Shown: positions 2,382 through 53,190 of the stretch, piece by piece | Layout of the letters: every line of letters begins with the position of its first letter | Position numbering within the stretch: the stretch's first letter is position 1 | DNA from: the human T2T-CHM13v2.0 reference genome, Homo sapiens | NCBI RefSeq assembly: GCF_009914755.1 | Contig: NC_060936.1 | DNA length: 64,000 bases | Strand: one strand, 5' to 3' | Notes under the pieces: generated by a model | What the model saw: only the letters and a program-made list of their open reading frames with translations | What the model was told of the DNA's origin: nothing | The model's database searches: none | Program-made: the position numbers and the translations under genes

Positions 2382-3394
2382 ATGGGGAAAAAACAGAGCA
2401 GAAAAACTGAAAATTCTAAAAATCAGAGTGCATCTCCTCTTCTAAAGAATGCAGTGCCTCACCAGCAACAGAACAAAGCTCAATGGAGAATGACTTTGAC
2501 GAGATGAGAGAAGAAGGCTTCAGACGATCAAACTACTTGGAGCTAAAGGAGGAAGTTCGAACCCATGGCAAAGGAGTTAAAAACCTTGAAAAAAGATTAG
2601 ATGAATGGCTAACTAGAATAACCAATGCACAGAAGTCCTTAAAGGACCCGATGGAGCTGAAAACCACGGCACAAGAACTACATGATGAAAGCACAAGCCC
2701 AGTAGCTGATTCAATCAACTGGAAGAAAGGGTATCAGTGATGGAAGATCAAATGAATGAAATGAAGCAAAAAGAGAAGTTTAGAGAGAAAAGAATAAAAA
2801 GAAATGAACAAAGCCTCCAAGAAATATGGGACTATGTGAAAAGACCAAATCTACATCTGATTGGTATACCTGAAAGTGAAGGGGAGAATGGAACCAAGTT
2901 GGAGAACACTCTGCAGGATATTATCCAGGAGAACTTCCCCAATCTAGCAAGGCAGGCCAACATTCAAATTCAGGAAATACAGAGAATGCCACAAAGATAT
3001 TCCTGGAGAAGAGCAACTCCAACACACATAATTGTTAGATTCACCAAAGTTGAAATGAAGGAGAAAATGTTAAGCACAGCCAGAGAGAAAGGTCTGGTTA
3101 CCCACAAAGGGAAGCCCATCACACTAACAGCTGATCTCTCAGCAGAAACTCTATAAGCCAGAAGAGAGTGGAGACCAATATTCAACATTCTTAAAGACAA
3201 GAATTTTCAACCAGAATTTCATATCCAGCCAAACTAAGCTTCATAAGTGAAGGAGAAATAAAATACTTTACAGACAAGCAAATGCTGAGGATTTTGTCAC
3301 CACCAGGCCTGCCCTAAAAGAGCTCCTGAAGGAAGCATTAAACATTGAAAGGAACAACCGGTACCAGCCACTGTAAAAACATGCCAAATTGTAA
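2382..3394 (+). pseudogene. L1 ORF1p, disrupted
   Basis: Starts MGKKQSRK; split across three frames in the ORF track and has internal stops. Confidence 0.93.
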
Positions 3395-3457
3395 AGACCA
3401 CTGAGGCTAGGAAGAAACTGCATCAACTAACAAGCAAAATAACCAGCTAACATCATA

Positions 3458-7116
<3,659 letters not shown>

Positions 7117-7511
7117 ACAATGAGAACACATGGACACAGGAAGGGGAACATCACACACCAGGGCATGTTGTGGGGTGGGGGTAGGGGGGAGGGATAGCAT
7201 TGGGAGATATACCTAATGCTAAATGATGAGTTAATGGGTGCAGCACACCAACATGGCACATGTATCCATATGTAACTAAACTGCACATTGTGCACATGTA
7301 CCCTAAAAAAGTATAATAAGAAAAAAAGAAAAAAGTATCACTTTGTATATATTTTTATTTATCATTTTCTGTCTTTTAGTCATAATATTTTTTTAAAAAT
7401 TTTATTAGTAAGTGCCTGCCAGTCTGTTGTGTATACTGGTGCACATTTAATATGAAAGTTTAATTCACGACATTTTGAAGTTGAAATGCAAAGTCTTCTT
7501 AAACTTCCATC

Positions 7512-15260: not shown

Positions 15261-15414
15261 CTTCCCACAAACTCATTTCATGTTTTCCTGTGGCCCCTGT
15301 AAAGTATTGATGCCTGTTTATAAAGTATCAGAGAGAAATAAATTTATCATAGGTCTTAATACAATTAAGCAATTCTTCTCTCATAAAATAAGAACCACTC
15401 TCAAAATTCAATTA

Positions 15415-15420
15415 TTTATT
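15415..15420 (-). terminator. Polyadenylation signal of gene A
   Basis: AATAAA about 230 nt into a terminal exon that has a strong acceptor (ttttgttttcaaatttag), followed by T/GT-rich sequence. Confidence 0.65.
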
Positions 15421-18325
15421 GAGCCCGTACTCGATGAGACACAGCTAAGAAGTGCCCCTTCCCCATCCCTGAACAATTCCCCCTACCCAGCCAGGATCAA
15501 TGCCTCAGCTGGGCACATCCTATGTTTTTCTAGTCTTCTACAATAGATCTCCTATAGTGTAGTGGTAGGCATGCTCAAAAGCATAGAATCTTCTTAGAAA
15601 GTAGTGGATAGCAGTGATCATCACAGCTAATGGAGAATTTGCTTCATTTTCTAAATTTGAAAACAAAAACAAACAAAAAACGGGAGTTATCAAGAGAAAC
15701 AAGAGAACCAGGGCTCAAAAGATCAGCCCCATCTTTTCACCCTTTCCCTGGGCATGAAACTTAATTTCTTTAGGGTGTAATTTTTTATCCTCCCTCCCTT
15801 GTCTTCTCCCTAATGTGAGATATTTACACACTGTCCAGGCATCCATTTTACTCCATGTTCCCTTCAAAACTCTTTTGAAGGAAAGAGTCCTTGTTAATCT
15901 TATCCCTATTTAGTTACTGAAAATCCAAATAACTGGGCTCTCTTTCCTCCAGGGAGGAAAGAGATTGTCTTTAACCTCCATGTTACATTTTGTAGTTGAT
16001 CTCAGCATCTGGGAAGTTTTAAGTTTGGAATTTTTACCAGTGAATTTAAACTAGCATTGAAAATGGTATCAAATCATCAGTAAAGTATTAAAGGTAAAAG
16101 AGGAGAATCTTACAAAACTTCACTGAGGTGAACTCCAAGAGTCTTCTCTGAAGGTGCTGGGCTGGTCTTCAATTAAGTAAAGAAATGTTTCTTATTCATG
16201 GTCAGTAAGACTCATTCACCACATGTCTACCATTCTGTTATGAGCCTCCAATAGTGTTAGTAAATGTAGGATTCCACTGAGTCTGTGGCACCAAAACCCT
16301 CTTTCTCCTAATCTTCAAGGTACTCCACCAGGACTCAAATCCTACTATGGAAATGGAATGCAAATGCATTCCATGAGAAGGACTGGGTTAAAGGCATGGC
16401 CTTCACTCACACTTAGAAGTTCCTAAGTGTAGCAGGTGAACTAGACCTATCCTCATGTGCTAGCAAACATGACGCCCAGGTGAGAAAGGCATATAATGGG
16501 GGCAGAGTACCAGAGTCCACTTCTTGAGTCTGTCCTCGAATCCTTCTCAAGAAAAATCTATGGTAGGAATCCAGTCTGCTGGAGGAAAGCAGGCCTTCCC
16601 TCAGGAATGCAAAAGATGGGAGCCCATCCCCTGCCCAGGCCTCCTGCGAAGCCAGACCCTCACTCACGGAAAGCCTGGGTGTTCTCCAGGTACACATCTG
16701 TGGGTGACTCCAGGTCCATGGTGGATTCTGGTAGGTCAGTGGTTGATTCTACAGGAGCCAAAAAGAAAAGAACAGCGCAAGTACTTTCCAGTGAGAATTT
16801 TCACTCTTAGGTAGATCTTTTTCTGGGGAAACATGGAACATAATGTGGCAGACCACATCAAACGTGGTCTCACCACAAGCCTCTCTTCTGCCACCCGCTG
16901 GAAAGTCCAGTGGACTAACTGCTGCCTGGGAGGGTGCTCAAAGCCCCCCACCCACCCTCTTTTCAAGGGTTCGGTTTAGGAAGGAGCATTCAATATTGTG
17001 CCTCTAAATGTGTATTGGTCAGACTGGAAGAAAAAGTCCAAGACTCCCCTTTATACTTCTTCCAGGTTCCTGAAAGCAAAAAACAAAAACCAAAAGGGGT
17101 TAAGGATCAAGGAAACCAGCTATTTCTAAGGAGTGGAGCAAGAATGAAATAGACGCTAAATGGGCCACTCCTATAATTTTTTCATTTAATGGACAGTGTC
17201 TAGGTCTTTATTTTCCACCCTGTCTCTCAGAATGCACAAGCCAGGCGTTCTGGGGCTTGCTAACCATATCAGCATCATAAACTTGTGGGTCTGTTGAGCA
17301 ACAACCAGGCTCCCTTTAGGCTACAGTGATGGATCACACGCAGGGGCATTGCAGCGGGTCATGGGCCCAGGAGGCCAGAATCACCTGCTCTATAATGTAG
17401 ACAGTTTGCTTTATCATAGTTTATATCAGCAAACAAGCTGATATATCAGCAAACAAGCTACACCCAGCATCTCCCACACTGAGAGCTACCAGGAGGAGAG
17501 CCAGAGGAAGAGGAGGGGAAAGTAATCTTTTCAATACAAATGAATGAGCACCTCTCCTCCTGAGAAATCGACCTGCATTCAGGAAGAGCCAGGAAAGAAT
17601 GCTTTTAGCTGAAAGTTTCATGAAGACAGCTGTTTCTTTCTTTTCTCAACATGATTTACAAGTTTCCATTTCAGACCCACTCATTTCCATTGCCTGTGAC
17701 CAAGCGAGATAATAAAGTGCTCTGAAATTTTCTGCACTTCACCATCAAATGAGGATACCTCCTGGGACTTTTTAACCTGAGAGAAATAGAATAATGCCTT
17801 TTCAGCACCCAATAGGGAGTGAGACCACAGATAAACCTCAGAAGTTCTCTAATCAGGTGCCCTAATGGCAGCAGGCCCAGCCCATTAAGTTTATGAGGTC
17901 AGTTCAAACACAACACAAATCTTATCTTAGCCACTCAATTACTCAAACCCTCCGAGCTCAGCCACCCATCCCATCTTAAGACCAAATCCATATGATTCTT
18001 ACCCAATTCAGCTTTACAACTTTCACAGCAGGCCTCTCTCTCTCTCTCTACCCAATCCCCTTCTCTCTTTCTGTATACACATGCACACAAATAATTTTAG
18101 CCCCATTCTCCAAAAGACCTCCCATGGCCCACTTACCTGGGGGGAGTGTGGGAAATGTCACAGCCAGGACCCACAAGGCTGAGAAGATCAGGGCCTTCCT
18201 GAGCATGGTGTAAGCAGGGAGGGTAGAAGGCTGGGAAGGTGAGCAGGCAGGTAGGCAGAGCAGGCAGGTGGGCAGGCCCTGGAGCTGTGGTGTGTACGGG
18301 TAAGAGCTAGAGAGCTCTGCTGGCC

Positions 18326-18332
18326 TTTTATA
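18326..18332 (-). promoter_or_regulatory. TATA box of gene A
   Basis: TATAAAAG on the minus strand about 120 nt upstream of the Kozak ATG of the signal-peptide exon. Confidence 0.75.
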
Positions 18333-19830: not shown

Positions 19831-20659
19831 GATCCCTAGAGCCTAAGCTCTCAATCACTCTATTTGTCCTTCCAACCTAGTTATCTCTCTGTTCTCCTCA
19901 CTGCTGTCTTTGACCTGTGAAACGTGGCACTGCACAGGGCTTTGCCCTAAAGGAAGGGGAAAATGGACACACACTAGAGAACATTTTGTTTTTCTGTAAA
20001 CTCAGTTTCCTTGGCAAGCCCTGTACAATTAAGTGTAACCCAAACACAATAGTCAGGAGCTTGGGAAGCAAGAAGCTGATAAAAAAAAATCTGCAGACAA
20101 TAACACAGCAAACATAGGACTCAAATGAGATAATAATGCACTAAGTTATAGGCCAGTGGAAAAAGGGAGAATTTTACCTGCACTGGCAGCAATATAAGAA
20201 TATTTTCCACCGTGGAAAAGTGCAAGAACTGACTGGCAAATGGGCGAAGTGGAGTCTCTGAGGTCCTAGAGGAGAGCTGGACTGAGGCGTTAAGGGGCAG
20301 GAGTGACCTACCTCCTCTAGAAGATTTGACTTCTTCCTGACCACCTAAAAATAGAAACACCGCTTTAGATGTCCATCCGAATGTCATAGGACCATCTCAT
20401 TGCCTCAATTTCAACCAGAGTCAGGGAAAGAATGGCTGCCTGGTGACCCCTATGTTGAAACATGGGAGCAATTTGCTCTCCCCTCATGGAGATGTGCTTC
20501 TCTTTCTCACCGGCTGAGCACCAGTAGGTAATGGACACAGTGGGTCCCAGAGGGGAACCTGGCCTTGCTGAGGTGAGAGCTAATGAAACTGTAAGGTTAC
20601 AGTTGCAGGGTTTTTATTTAAAGAAGTTGTAGTTATTAAATATATAATATATATAAATA

Positions 20660-47337: not shown

Positions 47338-47789
47338 TTTCATGCCCGTCTGTGTGAAGAGACCACCAAACAGGCTTTGTGTGAGCAACATGGCTGTTTA
47401 TTTCACCTGGGTGCAGGCGGGCTGAGTCCTAAAGGAGAGTCAGTGAAGGGAGATGGGGTGGGGCTGTTTTATAGGATTTGGGTAGGTAAAGGAAAATTAC
47501 AGTCAAAGGGGGTTTGTTATCTGGCAGGCAGGAGTGGGGGTCGCAAGGTGCTCAGTGGGGGTGCTTTTTGAGCCAGGATGAGCCAGGAAAAGGACTTTCA
47601 CAAGGTAATGTCATCACTTAAGGCAAGGACCGGCCATTTACACTTCTTTTGCAGTGGAATGTCATCAGTTAAGGTGGGGCAGGGCATATTCACTTCTTTT
47701 GTGATTCTTCAGTTACTTCAGGCCATCTGGGCGTATACGTGCAAGTCACAGGGGATGCGATGGCTTGGCTTGGGCTCAGAGGCCTGACA
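47338..47789 (-). promoter_or_regulatory. 3' LTR7
   Basis: Direct repeat of the 5' LTR; about 19 differences counted by eye. Confidence 0.92.
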
Positions 47790-50700
47790 TTCCTGCCTTC
47801 TTATATTAATAAGAAAAATAAAACAAAATAGTGTTGAAGTGTTGGGGTGGCGAAAATTTTTGGGTGCTATGGAGAGAGAATGGGCGATGTTTCTCAGGGC
47901 TGCTTCAAGCAGGATTAGGGGCGGCGTGGGAACCTAGAGTGGGAGAGATTAAGCTGAAGGGAGGTCTCATGGTAAGGGGTGATATTGTGGGGATGTTAGA
48001 AGAAACATTTTTTGTATAGAATGATTGGTGATGGCCTGGATATGGTTTTGGATGAACTGAGAAACTAAATGGAATAACAGAAGGAGAAAAACAGGTATAA
48101 AAGGTCTAAGAATTGGGATGACTCAGGATATCTGATTAGAGAGTGCCTAAGGAGATTCAGCATAGTCCTGCCAGCAAAGATTATTTATTTACTTCAAGAG
48201 TTAAGAGTGGCATTTTGGGGATAGCACCAAGAGATATCAGCTGTGATGGCTTGGAAAAACAGTGTGAACTGGCAGTGTAAACAAGAGCAGAGCATGTATG
48301 AGTAGTTGAGAACGGTGAATAGGAGTATGACTAGACAGAAGATAGCAGGTATGACAAGTTTTTTGGGGAACAGTCTAAGTTGGTCTGGTGTCTGGAATGA
48401 GACTGGGGCCTAACAAAAAGGAGCATCTATACAGGACCTTAAATGGGCTGTACCCTGTAGCATTCCGAGGACAGGCCTGAATTCTGAGAAGGGAAAGTGG
48501 TAAAAGTATTGTTCAGTCCTTTTTAAGTTGGTGGCTGAGCTTGGTGAGGTGTGTTTTTAAAAGACCTTTAGTCCATTCTACTTTTCTTGAAGACAGAGGA
48601 CCATAAGGGATATAAAGGTTTCACTGAATACTAAGAGCCTGAAAAACTGCTTGGCTCATTTGACTAATAAAGGCTCGTCTGTTATCAGACTGTATTGAGG
48701 TGGGAAGACTAAACTGAGAAATTATGTCTGACAGAACGGAAGAAATGACTGCGGTGGCCTTCTCAGACCCTGTAGGAAAGGCCTCTACCTATCCAGTGAA
48801 AGTATCTACCTAGACTAAGAGGTATTTTAGTTATCTGACTCGGGGTATGTTGAGTAAAGCTAATTTGCCAGTCCTGGGTGGGGGCAAATCCTCGAGCTTG
48901 ATGTGTACGGAAGGGAGGGAGCCTGAATAATCCCTGAGGAGTAGTAGAATAGCAGATGGAACACTGAGAAGTTATTTCCTTGAGGATAGATTTCCATGAT
49001 GGAAAGGAAATAAGAGGTTCTAAGAGGTTGGCTAGTGGCTTGTACTATAGTATAACCTGCCTTTGCTGGTGTGTGGCGATTAGGCCTGGTGGAACTGCCA
49101 TCAATAAGTCAAGCGTGATCAGGGTGAGGAACAGGAAAGAAGGAAATTTGGGGAAATGGAGTGAATGTCAGGTGGATCAGAGAGATACAGTCATGGGGGT
49201 CAGGTGTGGTATCAGGAATAATGTGGGAGGCTGGATTGAAGTCTGGGCCAGGAACAACGGTAATTGTGGGAGACTCAACAGAGAGTACAGCTGAAGGAGC
49301 CGGGGAGCAGAAAGTATATGCGTCAGGTATGAGGAAGAAAATAGATTTTGGAAGTTATGAGAACTGTAGAGAGTGAGTTGAGCATAGTTTGTGATTTTGA
49401 GGGCCTCTAAAAGTATTAAAGCAGTGGCAGCCGCTGCACGCAGACATGAGGGCTAGGCTAAAACAGTAAGGTCAAGTTGTTTGGACAGAAAGGCTACAGG
49501 GTGTGGTCCTGGCTCTTATGTAAGAATTCTGACCGCGCTAACCATGCCTAGGAAGGAAAGGAGTTGTTGTTTTGTAGAAGGTGCTTGGGTTTGAGAGATC
49601 AGTTGGACACGATTGGCAGGGAGAGCACGTGTGTTTTTATGAGAATTATGCTGAGATAGGTAACAGATGAGGAAGAAATTTGGGCTTGATTGAAGTAATG
49701 GGGGCTGTCTGTGAAGCTTTGTGGCAGTACAGCCTAAGTAATTTGCTGAGCTTGATGGGTGTCAGGGTCAGTCCAAGTGAAAGTGAAGAGAGGCTGGGAT
49801 TAAGGGTGCAAAGGAATAGTAAAGAAAGCATGTTTGAGATCCAGAACAGAATAATGGGTTGTGGAGGCAGGTATTGAGGATAGGAGAGTATATGGGTTTG
49901 GCACCACGGGGTGGATAGGCAAAACAATTTGGTTGATAAGGTGCAGATCCTGAACTAACTTCTAAGGCTTGTCTGGTTTTAGGATAGGTAAGATGGCAGA
50001 ATTGTAAGGAGAGTTTATAGGCTTTAAAAGGCCATGCTCTAGCAGGCGAGTGATAACAGGCTTTAATGTTTTTAAAGCATGCTGCAGGATGAGATATTGG
50101 CATTGAGTGGGGTAAGGGTGATTAGGTTTTAATGAGATGGTAAGGGGTACATGATCAGTCACCAAGGAGGGAGTAGAGGTATCTTATACTTGTGGGTTAA
50201 GGTGGGGTGATACAAGAGGAGGATGCAAAGGAGGCTTTGGATTGGGAAGAAGGGCGGCAATGAGATATAGCTGTAGTCCAGGAATAGTCAGGGAAGCAGA
50301 TAATTTAAAGTGTCTCAGTCTAATAAGGGAACTGGGCAGGTGGGGATAACTAAAAAGGAGTGCTTAAAAGAGTATTGTCTAAGTTGGCACCAGAGTTGGG
50401 AAGTTTTAAGAGGTTTAGAAGCCTGGCCATCAATACCCACAACAGTTATGGAGGCAAGGGAAACAGGCCCTTGAAAAGAAGGTAATGTGGAGTGGGTAGC
50501 CTCCGTATTGATTAAGAAGGGGACGGGCTTACCTTCCACTGTGAGAGTTACCTAAGGCTCGGCATCCGTGATGGTCTAGGGGGCTTCCGAGGCGATCGCG
50601 CAGTGTCAGTCTTCAGCCGCTAAGCTGAGAAGGAGTCAGTCAGAGAGCCTTCGGCCAGAGTTCCAGGGGCTCTGGGAGTGGCTGCCAGGTGAGTTGAACA

Positions 50701-51914
50701 GTCCGATTTTCAGTGGGGTCCCACACAGATGGGACGCGGCTTAGGAGGAATCCCGGGCTGAGGGCATTCCTTGGCCCAGTGATCAGATTTCTGGCACATG
50801 TAGCAAGCTCCTGTGGGAGGAGGTTCTGGAGGAATGCCTGGCCACTGCGGTTCAGGCATTTGGAAGTTCTTATGTGCTGGAGATGTGGCTGGGGTTTGTC
50901 TCACAGTGGAGGCAAGGAATTGCAACTTTTTTCTATTATTTTACACCTTGAAGGCGAGGTTAATTAAATCCTGTTGTGGGGTTTGAGGGCTGGAATTTAA
51001 TTTTTGGAGTTTTATTTAATGTCAGGAGCAGATTGGGTAATAAAATGTATTTTGAGAATAAGATGGCCTTTTGACCTTTTAGGGTCTAGGGCTGTAAAGT
51101 GTCTCAGGATTGCTGCCAAACAAGTCATAAACTGGGCTGGATTTTTATATTTGATGAAAAAGAGCCTAAACGCTATCTGATTTGGGATAAAGAAAAAGGC
51201 GCATTAACCTTGACTATGCCTTTAGCTCCAGCCACCTTTTTAAGAGTAAATTGCTGGGCGGGAGGGGGAAGGCTAGTCACGGAACAAAACTGTAAGCCAG
51301 ACCAGGTGTGAGGAGGGGAGGTGATAAAAAGATAATAGGGTGGAGGAGCAGAGGCTGAGCAAGAATTGGGACCTAGCTCAGCCTGGCGAGGAGCAGCCTG
51401 GGGAGGAAGGGAGAGGTCAGATGGGTCTGTACAACAGGAAGATTAGAAAGACTCAGTGACGCTTGGGGTTGGGACTGAGGGGACAGGCGGGAGGGAAAGA
51501 AGGAAGATTTGGGATGAGTTGCACTGGGCACAGAGACTAGGAAGGAACTGATGTGTAAAAGAATGCCTGGACATCAGGCACCTCAGATCATTTGCCTATT
51601 TTATGACAAGAATGATTTAGATCTTGCAGGACGGAAAAATTCAAAGTGCCATTTTCTGGCTATTTGGAACTACTGTCAAGTTTGTATTGGGGTCAAGCGG
51701 CATTGCAGAAGAAAATAAGGCATTTAGATTTTAGGTCAGGTGTGAGTAGAAGAGGTTTTAAGTTTTTGAGAACACAGGCCAAGGGAGTAGAAGGAGGAAT
51801 GGAGGGTGGAAGGTTGCCCATAGTGAAGGAAGCAAGCCTAGAGAAAAGAGAGAGTAGAGAAATGGAGGGAAGGGGTTCGGGGGTTCTTCCCTTCCAGAAA
51901 AGTGGGAAAAGGCA

Positions 51915-52130
51915 TTGGGGTGCAGAGATAAGAGGTTGGGGCATGGAAATAAGAGATGGGGCACCGAAATAAGAGGTCAGGGCATGGAAATAAGGGATTG
52001 GGGCACAGAGATAGAAGAGGTTGGGGTGCAGAAATAAGGAATTAGGGCACAGAGATATGAGGTTGGGACACAGAAATAAGGGATTGGGGTGCAGAGATAA
52101 GAGGTTGGGGCATGGAAATAAGGGATTGGG
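51915..52130. repeat. VNTR in the HERV-H leader (about 20-21 nt units)
   Basis: About 10 alternating units gggtgcagagataagaggtt / gggcatggaaataagggatt. Confidence 0.85.
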
Positions 52131-52718
52131 TGTTCTTGCCCCATAGAAAAGTGGGATTTGCCGCTAAGGGTGAAGGAGAAGGGGTTGAGGGGTACTTGCC
52201 CCTCCCCCAGAAAAGCAGAGAAGGGGTAGAGAGAAGGAGAGAAGGGGTTGGGGTACTTGCCCCTTCCCCAGAAAAGCGGGACTTGCCAGTAAGGGTGAAG
52301 GACCAAGGCAGGGGTCCCTGCATGGTCTGACACCTTTGAAACGTGGGTGTATAATCAGAGAGACGTCCCTGCAATGATTAAACACCAAGGGAAGGCTGCC
52401 TTCCCAGTCCGTGACCAGCGCCGGAGTTTTGGGTCCATGGATAAAACATGTCTCCTTTGTCTCTACCAGAAAATGAAAGGAATTGAAATTAAGAGAAGGG
52501 AGAGATTGAAGTGTGGTGCCAAGATTGAAAGGAGAAAGAGGTTGAGGGATAGTGAGGGAGGTTGGAGAAGAGAGTAAAAAGACGCCGCTTACTGGATTTG
52601 AAATTGGTGAGATGTTTCTTGGGCTGGTCGGTCTGAGGACCTGAGGTCGTAGGTGGATCTTTCTCATGGAGCAAAGAACAGGAGGACAGGGGATTGATCT
52701 CCCAAGGGAGGTCCCCTG

Positions 52719-52736
52719 ATCCGAGTCACGGCACCA
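52719..52736 (-). other. Primer binding site (tRNA-His)
   Basis: TGGTGCCGTGACTCGGAT immediately after the 5' LTR. Confidence 0.93.
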
Positions 52737-52738
52737 AA

Positions 52739-53190
52739 TTTCATGCGCGTCCATGTGAAGAGACCACCAAAGAGGCTTTGTGTGAGCAACATGGCTGTTT
52801 ATTTCACCTGGGTGCAGGCAGGCTGAGTCGGAAAAGAGAGTCAGCGAAGGGAGATAAGGGTGGGGCTGTTTTATAGGATTTGGGTAGGTAAAGGAAAATT
52901 ACAGTCAAAGGGGGTTTGTTATCTGGCGGGCAGGAGTGGGAGTCGCAAGGTGCTCAGTGGGGGTGTTTTTGAGCCAGGATGAGCCAGGAAAAGGACTTTC
53001 ACAAGGTAATGTCATCACTTAAGGCAAGGACCGGCCATTTATATTTCTTTTGCAGTGGAATGTCATCAGTTAAGGTGGGGCAGGGCATATTCACTTCTTT
53101 TGTGATTCTTCAGTTACTTCAGGCCATCTGGGTGTATACGTGCAAGTCACAGGGGATGCGATGGCTTGGCTTCAGCTCAGAGGCCTGACA
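52739..53190 (-). promoter_or_regulatory. 5' LTR7 (LTR7up-like U3)
   Basis: tgtcaggcctctgag...aatcacaaaagaagtgaatatgccctgccccacc...cctataaaac...gaaataaac. Confidence 0.9.

What the first reader, a model, noticed from the sequence alone, without database searches (positions are those of the whole stretch)
15395..18332. Hidden micro-exon gene for a secreted pro-peptide-like protein, apparently lost in this lineage (gene A)
Seen: TATA box, Kozak ATG, a 23-aa signal-peptide exon, then exons of 18, 21, 81(+20), 21, 24 and 81 nt that are all phase 1-1, and an AATAAA terminal exon. Reconstruction: MLRKALIFSALWVLAVTFPTLPP|G*KVPG|GRFLRRR|ALSVGDAGCSLFADINYDKANCLHYRA|GTWKKYK|AGGRREAC|ESTTDLPESTMDLESPTDVYLENTQAF|PHEDRSSSPATLRNF*... 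No exon is long enough to appear in the ORF track. Inference: a unitary pseudogene of a secreted precursor. I do not recognise the family.
Basis: partly seen in the sequence, partly recalled or inferred. Interest (0 to 1): 0.92.

Follow-up and report, generated by a model that had tools for sequence, protein, structure and literature searches.

The report
Human remnant of kidney KAP gene
This stretch is a broken human gene of the family of the secreted kidney androgen-regulated protein (KAP) of mice: its signal-peptide and acidic exons survive inside a non-coding RNA gene while its core exons are missing, so humans likely lost this protein during primate evolution.

Summary
A real decayed gene on the minus strand, and its family is now identified: KAP (kidney androgen-regulated protein, Pfam KAR). 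An intronless retrocopy on chromosome 13 joins the signal exon (18206-18137) directly to the acidic exon (16748-16668) and carries further coding sequence that hits KAR (E 0.0087, below cut-off). A profile of these pieces retrieved 11 proteins, one over the KAR cut-off (18/23 identical in the signal exon) and three named 'KAP-like'. That intact protein matches only this locus and the retrocopy in the human genome. Fragments of the gene's 3' end lie beside PRB/PRH genes. Verdict: likely the unitary pseudogene of Kap, unannotated as such and not found in the papers searched. An 87-codon frame with intact signal peptide remains open if exon 1 is still used; no evidence that it is.

The parts
18327..18332 (-). 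TATA box, 126 nt upstream of the ATG
   Evidence: sequence; the region around it is also conserved in the translated upstream stretch of relative P0012
18137..18206 (-). Exon 1 coding part: 23-aa predicted signal peptide, phase-1 donor CAG|GTAAGT; intact
   Evidence: 18/23 identical to KAR-positive P0004, 12-13/23 to squirrel and marmot KAP-like proteins; 74% nucleotide identity to the retrocopy
17759..17776 (-).
   Evidence: skipped by retrocopy and by 9 of 11 relatives
17552..17572 (-).
17385..17485 (-).
   Evidence: no Pfam match; no match to relatives
17049..17069 (-).
   Evidence: no match to relatives
16874..16897 (-).
16668..16748 (-). Acidic Thr/Ser repeat exon (81 nt, phase 1-1), the true second exon of the ancestral mRNA; used by lncRNA NR_148969.1
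   Evidence: exact exon 1 junction in the retrocopy; 15/26 identical to P0004; spliced to the last exon in P0002; annotation table
16564..16667 (-). Site of the inferred deletion that removed the KAR-core exon(s) and a 48-nt exon
   Evidence: no match for P0004 51-87 or 88-103 between 16667 and 15651; homology with the PRB-cluster fragments stops at about 16564, just behind the donor of the 48-nt exon that they keep
16114..16166 (-).
   Evidence: P0007 C-terminus score 30 (2 of 500 shuffles), P0004 C-terminus 27 (23 of 500), P0011 and P0014 not significant; aligns with the retrocopy up to the last-exon junction
15396..15650 (-). Terminal exon, mostly 3' UTR (its first two bases would complete a split TAA); AATAAA at 15420-15415; 3' end of LOC440084
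   Evidence: 76% identical to the retrocopy 3' end; relatives end one exon earlier; squirrel isoform P0006 reads 15 residues into it in the same frame, 60% identical

Best explanation
The locus is the only intron-containing human homologue of the KAP (kidney androgen-regulated protein, Pfam KAR) family found, it lacks the family's core exons, and it is likely the unitary pseudogene of rodent Kap. Shown: signal exon, acidic repeat exon, penultimate exon and 3' UTR exon are homologous to intact mammalian KAP-like proteins; a processed copy on chromosome 13 preserves the older, complete mRNA; the core and 48-nt exons are absent here. Inferred: the ancestral gene was a TATA-driven gene of symmetric phase-1 cassette exons making a secreted, disordered, very acidic Ser/Thr-rich protein of about 120-170 aa, probably phosphorylated and O-glycosylated; 3' pieces of it were copied into the neighbouring PRB/PRH cluster; it was retroposed while still complete (roughly 45-70 million years ago); later a deletion removed its core and the remainder decayed; today an upstream promoter splices into two surviving exons to give lncRNA LOC440084, bypassing the signal exon.
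For: Retrocopy G000:C13:44,358,365-44,359,359 with exact exon 1 / 81-nt exon junction and no introns. Its extra coding piece hits only KAR among 24,736 Pfam families (E 0.0087, 16.8 bits, profile 62-87; 1 of 3 pieces) and resembles the mouse KAP urinary peptide around TDVE listed in PMC5932195 supplement 3 (compared by eye). Profile search: 11 proteins of 3165 candidates, P0004 at E 1e-22, three named 'kidney androgen-regulated protein-like'; P0004 is over the KAR cut-off, 29.3 against 27. P0004 against the human genome: 4 matches of 6 candidates, two on the retrocopy, two on this locus. Core segment scores 93 on the retrocopy and at most 37 in 258 kb of chromosome 12 including the window. The 48-nt exon survives at C12:11,117,524, 11,232,267 and 11,271,479 (scores 50, 47, 40). 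Mature P0004, P0007, P0011: 25-36% Ser+Thr, 19-28% Asp+Glu, 1% Lys+Arg. Mouse KAP is secreted through ER and Golgi (PMC5701062 section 10) and CK2-phosphorylated in PEST regions (PMC3182248 passages).
Against: The window's own pieces do not hit KAR (0 of 4), and the KAR profile found nothing in the human genome (where no control rang either). Only 1 of 11 relatives passes the KAR cut-off and 7 of 11 do not hit it at E 1. Mouse KAP itself was not retrieved, so the link to it runs through the Pfam model, NCBI names and a by-eye peptide comparison. Synteny with mouse Kap is recalled, not tested. Genome searches score only the best candidates, so a diverged paralogue could be missed. A frame from exon 1 through the 81-nt exon into the last exon is open for 87 codons.
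Confidence: 0.85

Rival explanations
1. The locus still makes a small secreted protein: exon 1 spliced to the 81-nt exon and the last exon gives an 87-aa KAP remnant with signal peptide and acidic repeats.
For: TATA, ATG, hydrophobic core and exon 1 donor are intact; the other three splice sites are in use (annotation, P0002); the frame is open for 87 codons; squirrel P0006 enters the last exon in the same frame; exon 1 is closer to P0004 than the retrocopy is (18 against 12 of 23).
Against: A search with the last-exon frame for proteins of 71 aa or more gave 1 hit of 2 candidates, an intron read-through; the exhaustive search gave only that, the 54-aa form starting at an internal ATG, and a repetitive chance hit. 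RefSeq's transcript skips exon 1. The last-exon frame is closed in the retrocopy. The penultimate exon is frameshifted.
Confidence: 0.07
2. One reading: all eight or nine exons belonged to one precursor with basic cleavage sites and a disulphide loop, killed by the stop in E2 and the duplication in E4.
For: The segments exist and E2 and E5 have strong acceptors; intron 1 is mildly rich in acceptor-like sites (5 of 85 tiles reach its count). The family does vary here: P0009 and P0012 carry inserts after the signal peptide, an orca record is 'isoform X41', and KAR profile positions 1-36 are not covered by P0004.
Against: Retrocopy, lncRNA and 9 of 11 relatives skip E2-E6; the two inserts find no match in intron 1 (234 and 405 of 500 shuffles score as well); no dibasic site or cysteine in 3 of 3 mature relatives examined. 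By eye E4 shows no convincing likeness to the mouse N-terminal peptides. The peptide test has low power (it missed the real penultimate exon), so one or two decayed cassette exons, E5 above all, remain possible (about 1 in 3).
Confidence: 0.04
3. The locus is a pseudogene of a KAP-like paralogue; the true orthologue of rodent Kap was lost separately.
For: Mouse KAP was not retrieved; relatives carry Thr-Thr-Asp-Leu repeats and lack the N-terminal third of the KAR model; the region is duplication-prone.
Against: Only one intron-containing homologue was found in the human genome; the position between the PRB genes and ETV6 agrees with the recalled position of mouse Kap.
Confidence: 0.12

Closest known systems
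Mouse/rat Kap, kidney androgen-regulated protein (P61110 as listed in PMC5932195; Pfam KAR PF15222)
   Same: Secreted, acidic, PEST-like Ser/Thr-rich protein family; the retrocopy and relative P0004 carry the KAR core
   Different: Human locus has lost the core exons, is annotated as lncRNA, and nothing shows kidney or androgen-driven expression; the non-murid relatives carry Thr-Thr-Asp-Leu repeats and lack KAR positions 1-36
'Kidney androgen-regulated protein-like' of Urocitellus parryii, Marmota monax, Marmota marmota; uncharacterised LOC117197156 of Orcinus orca
   Same: Same signal exon, repeat exon, penultimate exon and last-exon acceptor; isoforms differ by whole short segments, as expected for symmetric cassette exons
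   Different: They are intact ORFs of 113-172 aa with the core segment
Human unitary pseudogenes such as GULOP or ABCA17P (catalogue PMC2864566)
   Same: Single-copy, intron-containing loss of a gene that works in other mammals; still transcribed
   Different: Tiny, fast-evolving, low-complexity exons and a core deletion hide it from protein-alignment pipelines; the term Kap was not found in the catalogues searched
Salivary proline-rich protein genes PRB1-4, PRH1-2 (neighbours)
   Same: Minus-strand neighbours with a signal-peptide first exon; 3' fragments of this gene lie among them
   Different: No Pro/Gly/Gln repeats (7-12% in relatives) and no detectable similarity between the coding exons

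Membership tests
KAP/KAR family (descent) | Signal-peptide exon homologous to KAP-like proteins | tested here: met
   18/23 to P0004, 12-13/23 to four squirrel/marmot proteins; score 92 against next best 38 in 258 kb
KAP/KAR family (descent) | Acidic Ser/Thr-rich region | tested here: met
   81-nt exon 15/26 identical to P0004; score 72 against next best 35
KAP/KAR family (functional member) | KAR domain (PF15222) encoded at the locus | tested here: not met
   0 of 4 window pieces hit Pfam; core absent from the interval; present only in the retrocopy, below cut-off. Filed as a disabled homologue, not as a working member
KAP/KAR family (descent) | Best human genomic match of an intact KAR protein | tested here: met
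   P0004 matches only the retrocopy and this locus; only best candidates are scored
KAP/KAR family (orthology) | Synteny with mouse Kap | not testable with these tools
   No other mammalian genome is held; position recalled; paper searches gave nothing on it
KAP/KAR family (functional member) | Androgen-regulated expression in kidney proximal tubule | not testable with these tools
   One ARE-like site at 19978-19992 is at chance level (31 of 100 shuffles)
Unitary pseudogene | Intact counterparts in other species | tested here: met
   P0004, P0006, P0007, P0009, P0011
Unitary pseudogene | No working copy elsewhere in the genome | tested here: met
   Other copies are a frameshifted, Alu-interrupted retrocopy and 3' fragments; lower-bound searches
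Unitary pseudogene | Disabling lesions and no protein product | tested here: inconclusive
   Core exons missing and penultimate exon frameshifted, but an 87-codon frame is open; no such protein found
Peptide-hormone precursor (pro-peptide) | Conserved dibasic cleavage sites or cysteine loop | tested here: not met
   0 dibasic sites and 0 Cys in 3 of 3 mature relatives examined
Salivary proline-rich proteins | Pro/Gly/Gln-rich repeats | tested here: not met
   P+G+Q 7-12%; no coding-exon similarity to the PRB-like genes in the fetched blocks
SCPP micro-exon genes | Phase-0 introns (recalled) | tested here: not met
   Exon 1 ends in phase 1 and the validated internal exon is phase 1-1

The most novel reading that the evidence does not exclude
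Humans still make a mini-KAP: the intact TATA promoter and signal exon splice to the acidic exon and the last exon to give an unannotated 87-aa secreted acidic protein, hidden inside a gene labelled lncRNA, the human counterpart of a mouse kidney protein tied to male hypertension and metabolic protection.
Probability: 0.07. Interest if true: 0.8.

Novelty: new member of a known kind. Interest (0 to 1): 0.42.

Why it matters
Mouse KAP is among the most abundant proximal-tubule transcripts and has been proposed as a secreted, hormone-like factor and a therapeutic target (PMC5701062, sections 3 and 10; PMC3182248 passages); that paper calls it a protein without significant homology to known proteins. 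Placing its likely human counterpart, and showing that the core is gone, bounds how far those mouse results can transfer to people, gives lncRNA LOC440084 an origin, and shows that the family reaches beyond rodents (orca). The retrocopy preserves the lost exons and orders the events; the fragments beside PRB/PRH genes record how the salivary cluster rearranged next to this gene. It is also an example of a gene loss that protein-alignment catalogues can miss.

Tried and rejected
Pfam on four window pieces: 0 of 4. KAR profile against the human genome: nothing, and no control rang. Word search with the retrocopy's core piece: 2 candidates, none scored. ESM Atlas: no usable hit for the core piece; only hits under 0.9 to unrelated low-complexity clusters for P0004. 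Androgen-response element: chance level. Likeness of the RREAC motif to the osteocalcin/MGP Gla motif (recalled): dropped, it lies in an unsupported segment and no relative has cysteine there. E2 scored above its 40 shuffles against P0005, but a four-residue match among 11 proteins and nine peptides tried carries no weight. KAR-core exons in two PRB-cluster fragments: 0 of 10 tests convincing, best 4 of 100 shuffles. P0002 against P0006 was weak (E 0.049). No fold was predicted: the pieces are short, low-complexity and the spliced model could not be given as one query. Literature: ten searches found no paper linking LOC440084 or this locus to KAP.

Full report
Observation. The described elements lie on the minus strand: TATAAA at 18332, ATG at 18206, a 70-nt first coding exon (23 codons + 1) with a perfect donor, five short AG-bounded segments between 17776 and 16874, an 81-nt exon at 16748-16668 and a terminal exon at 15650-15396 with AATAAA at 15420. 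The last two coincide with exons of lncRNA LOC440084 in the supplied annotation. The promoter-plus-signal-exon pattern occurs once in the window and in 8 of 100 shuffles.

A retrocopy gives the true mRNA. A DNA search of the human genome with the locus gave 7 matches from 6 candidates: itself, five pieces on chromosome 12 and one on chromosome 13. The chromosome 13 copy (C13:44,358,365-44,359,359, locus L003) has no introns: exon 1 (74% identical) is joined base-exactly to the 81-nt exon (81% over 54 nt), followed by coding-like sequence that the window lacks, an Alu insertion, the terminal exon (76%) with AATAAA and an A-rich remnant. It has GTG for the start codon, a frameshift and stops. 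Its 3' part matches this locus best (E 6e-45), then three chromosome 12 fragments; its 5' part found only itself genome-wide but, in a local profile search of 258 kb, exon 1 and the 81-nt exon of this locus and nothing else.

Family. One of three retrocopy pieces hit one Pfam family, KAR, kidney androgen-regulated (E 0.0087, 16.8 bits, cut-off 27). A profile of two window exons and two retrocopy pieces retrieved 11 proteins of 3165 candidates: P0004 (120 aa, unnamed contig, E 1e-22), three proteins named 'kidney androgen-regulated protein-like' from a ground squirrel and two marmots, an uncharacterised ground-squirrel protein, an uncharacterised orca protein (isoform X41) and five more from unnamed sources. 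P0004 passes the KAR cut-off (29.3 bits); P0006, P0007 and P0009 hit KAR below it; 7 of 11 do not hit it. Window exon 1 is 18/23 identical to P0004 and the 81-nt exon 15/26. Searched back against the human genome, P0004 matched only the retrocopy (E 6e-5, 3e-4) and this locus (E 0.0097, 0.62). Against this: the window's own pieces hit no Pfam family (0 of 4), the KAR model alone found nothing in the genome (uninformative by its own control), and mouse KAP was not among the hits. The mouse urinary peptide around TDVE in PMC5932195 supplement 3 resembles the retrocopy's core by eye.

Corrected anatomy. Nine of the 11 relatives pass straight from the signal peptide into the acidic repeat, as the retrocopy does; P0009 and P0012 have inserts of 13 and about 20 residues that match nothing in intron 1 (234 and 405 of 500 shuffles do as well). 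E2-E6 therefore have no support from relatives, and their splice signals are at most marginally above background (approximate matrices from memory); E5 is the best candidate for a decayed cassette exon. The peptide test has low power, so this is 'unsupported', not 'excluded'. Downstream, P0004 residues 51-87 (the KAR core) and 88-103 have no match between 16667 and 15651 (134 and 480 of 500 shuffles), and the core scores at most 37 in 258 kb of chromosome 12 against 93 on the retrocopy. It is 53 nt where four relatives imply 51, hence frameshifted. Its last base T and the first two bases of the terminal exon would form the stop codon, which makes that exon mostly 3' UTR (inference). P0002, a 54-aa translation from an unnamed source, shows the 81-nt exon spliced to the last exon and starts at an internal ATG.

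Fragments in the salivary cluster. Pieces of the gene's 3' part lie at C12:11.116-11.117 Mb (minus), 11.217-11.219 Mb (minus), 11.232 and 11.271 Mb (plus) and 10.761 Mb (plus), near proline-rich-protein genes located by motif at 11,138,779, 11,179,572, 11,224,737, 11,264,715 and 10,757,254. Three keep the 48-nt exon that the main locus lacks (TAVYSEE-like; scores 50, 47, 40; 0 of 300 shuffles for the first). Their homology with the main locus stops at about 16564, directly behind that exon's donor, while two fragments share 2.5 kb further upstream that the main locus does not have. This places a deletion between 16667 and 16564; its size is not fixed, since part of the shared upstream DNA may be flank rather than intron.

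Mechanism and history. Shown: homology, the missing exons, the frameshift, transcription of two exons in a lncRNA. From relatives: the mature protein is 25-36% Ser+Thr, 19-28% Asp+Glu, 1% Lys+Arg, without cysteine or dibasic sites (3 of 3 examined), so it is not a pro-peptide. From papers: mouse KAP passes through ER and Golgi and is released from proximal-tubule cells (PMC5701062, sections 3 and 10 read whole, passages) and is CK2-phosphorylated in PEST regions (PMC3182248, passages). Inferred: the ancestral gene made a secreted, disordered acidic phospho/glycoprotein from symmetric phase-1 cassette exons; isoform differences among relatives fit this. Jukes-Cantor distances in the 3' UTR are 0.20 to the retrocopy and 0.30-0.31 to two fragments, and 0.32 to the retrocopy in exon 1: fragments first, retroposition next (about 45-70 million years at a recalled rate near 2.2e-9 per site per year), deletion last, because the retrocopy holds the core.

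Open door. Exon 1, the 81-nt exon and the last exon give an open 87-codon frame, and squirrel P0006 uses the same last-exon frame. A search that could have found such a protein returned only an intron read-through (1 of 2 candidates), and the exhaustive search returned 3 hits, none of this form. I put it at 7%.

Novelty. Ten full-text searches (listings and abstract starts seen) found no link between this locus and KAP. LOC440084 appears in 2 papers, as a table entry only (PMC8778304, PMC5050589; passages). The term Kap was absent from PMC2864566 (main-text and one supplement term search), PMC3580494 (8 supplement files; main text not searched), PMC2134963 (main text; its held supplement is 418 characters, so its tables were not seen) and PMC7392758 (8 supplement files, one file unreadable; main text not searched). 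PMC5932195 was seen as passages and supplement rows. Subscription papers, bioRxiv supplements, GENCODE and TOGA tables were not seen and may already call this loss. Verdict: a new member of a known kind, the likely human KAP unitary pseudogene, with a retrocopy that keeps the lost exons; interest 0.42.

Noticed in passing
L003:755-1749 (G000:C13:44,358,365-44,359,359): Processed KAP-family pseudogene with an Alu inserted at about 1094-1391; the only human sequence found that keeps the KAR core
   Followed up: yes
G000:C12:11,115,869-11,119,773; 11,217,366-11,218,560; 11,230,017-11,232,506; about 11,270,500-11,271,900; 10,760,757-10,761,438: 3' fragments of the same gene in both orientations beside PRB/PRH genes; the copies upstream of PRB1 and PRB2 are 95% identical over 1.39 kb, so they were duplicated with those genes
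   Followed up: partly
window 47338-53190: Element bounded by direct repeats of about 450 nt (90-97% identical, 5401 apart) with a 21-nt tandem repeat inside; looks like an endogenous retroviral provirus, HERV-H type by recall; overlaps the RefSeq enhancer 47511-48505 and lies inside the span of LOC440084
   Followed up: no
window 2699-7411: Long masked block with L1-like open frames of 200-240 codons on the plus strand (family by recall)
   Followed up: no
window 19978-19992: One-mismatch androgen-response-element-like site 1.65 kb upstream of the TATA box; chance level window-wide (31 of 100 shuffles)
   Followed up: yes
proteins P0008, P0013, P0014: Relatives from unnamed sources that look truncated or frameshifted; P0013 has Val for the first Met like the retrocopy. 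The gene may have decayed in several mammal lineages
   Followed up: no
window 20178-20344: Upstream LOC440084 exon splices past exon 1 and E2-E6 into the 81-nt exon; no in-frame ATG before the internal one that starts the 54-aa frame
   Followed up: partly
   Followed up: yes
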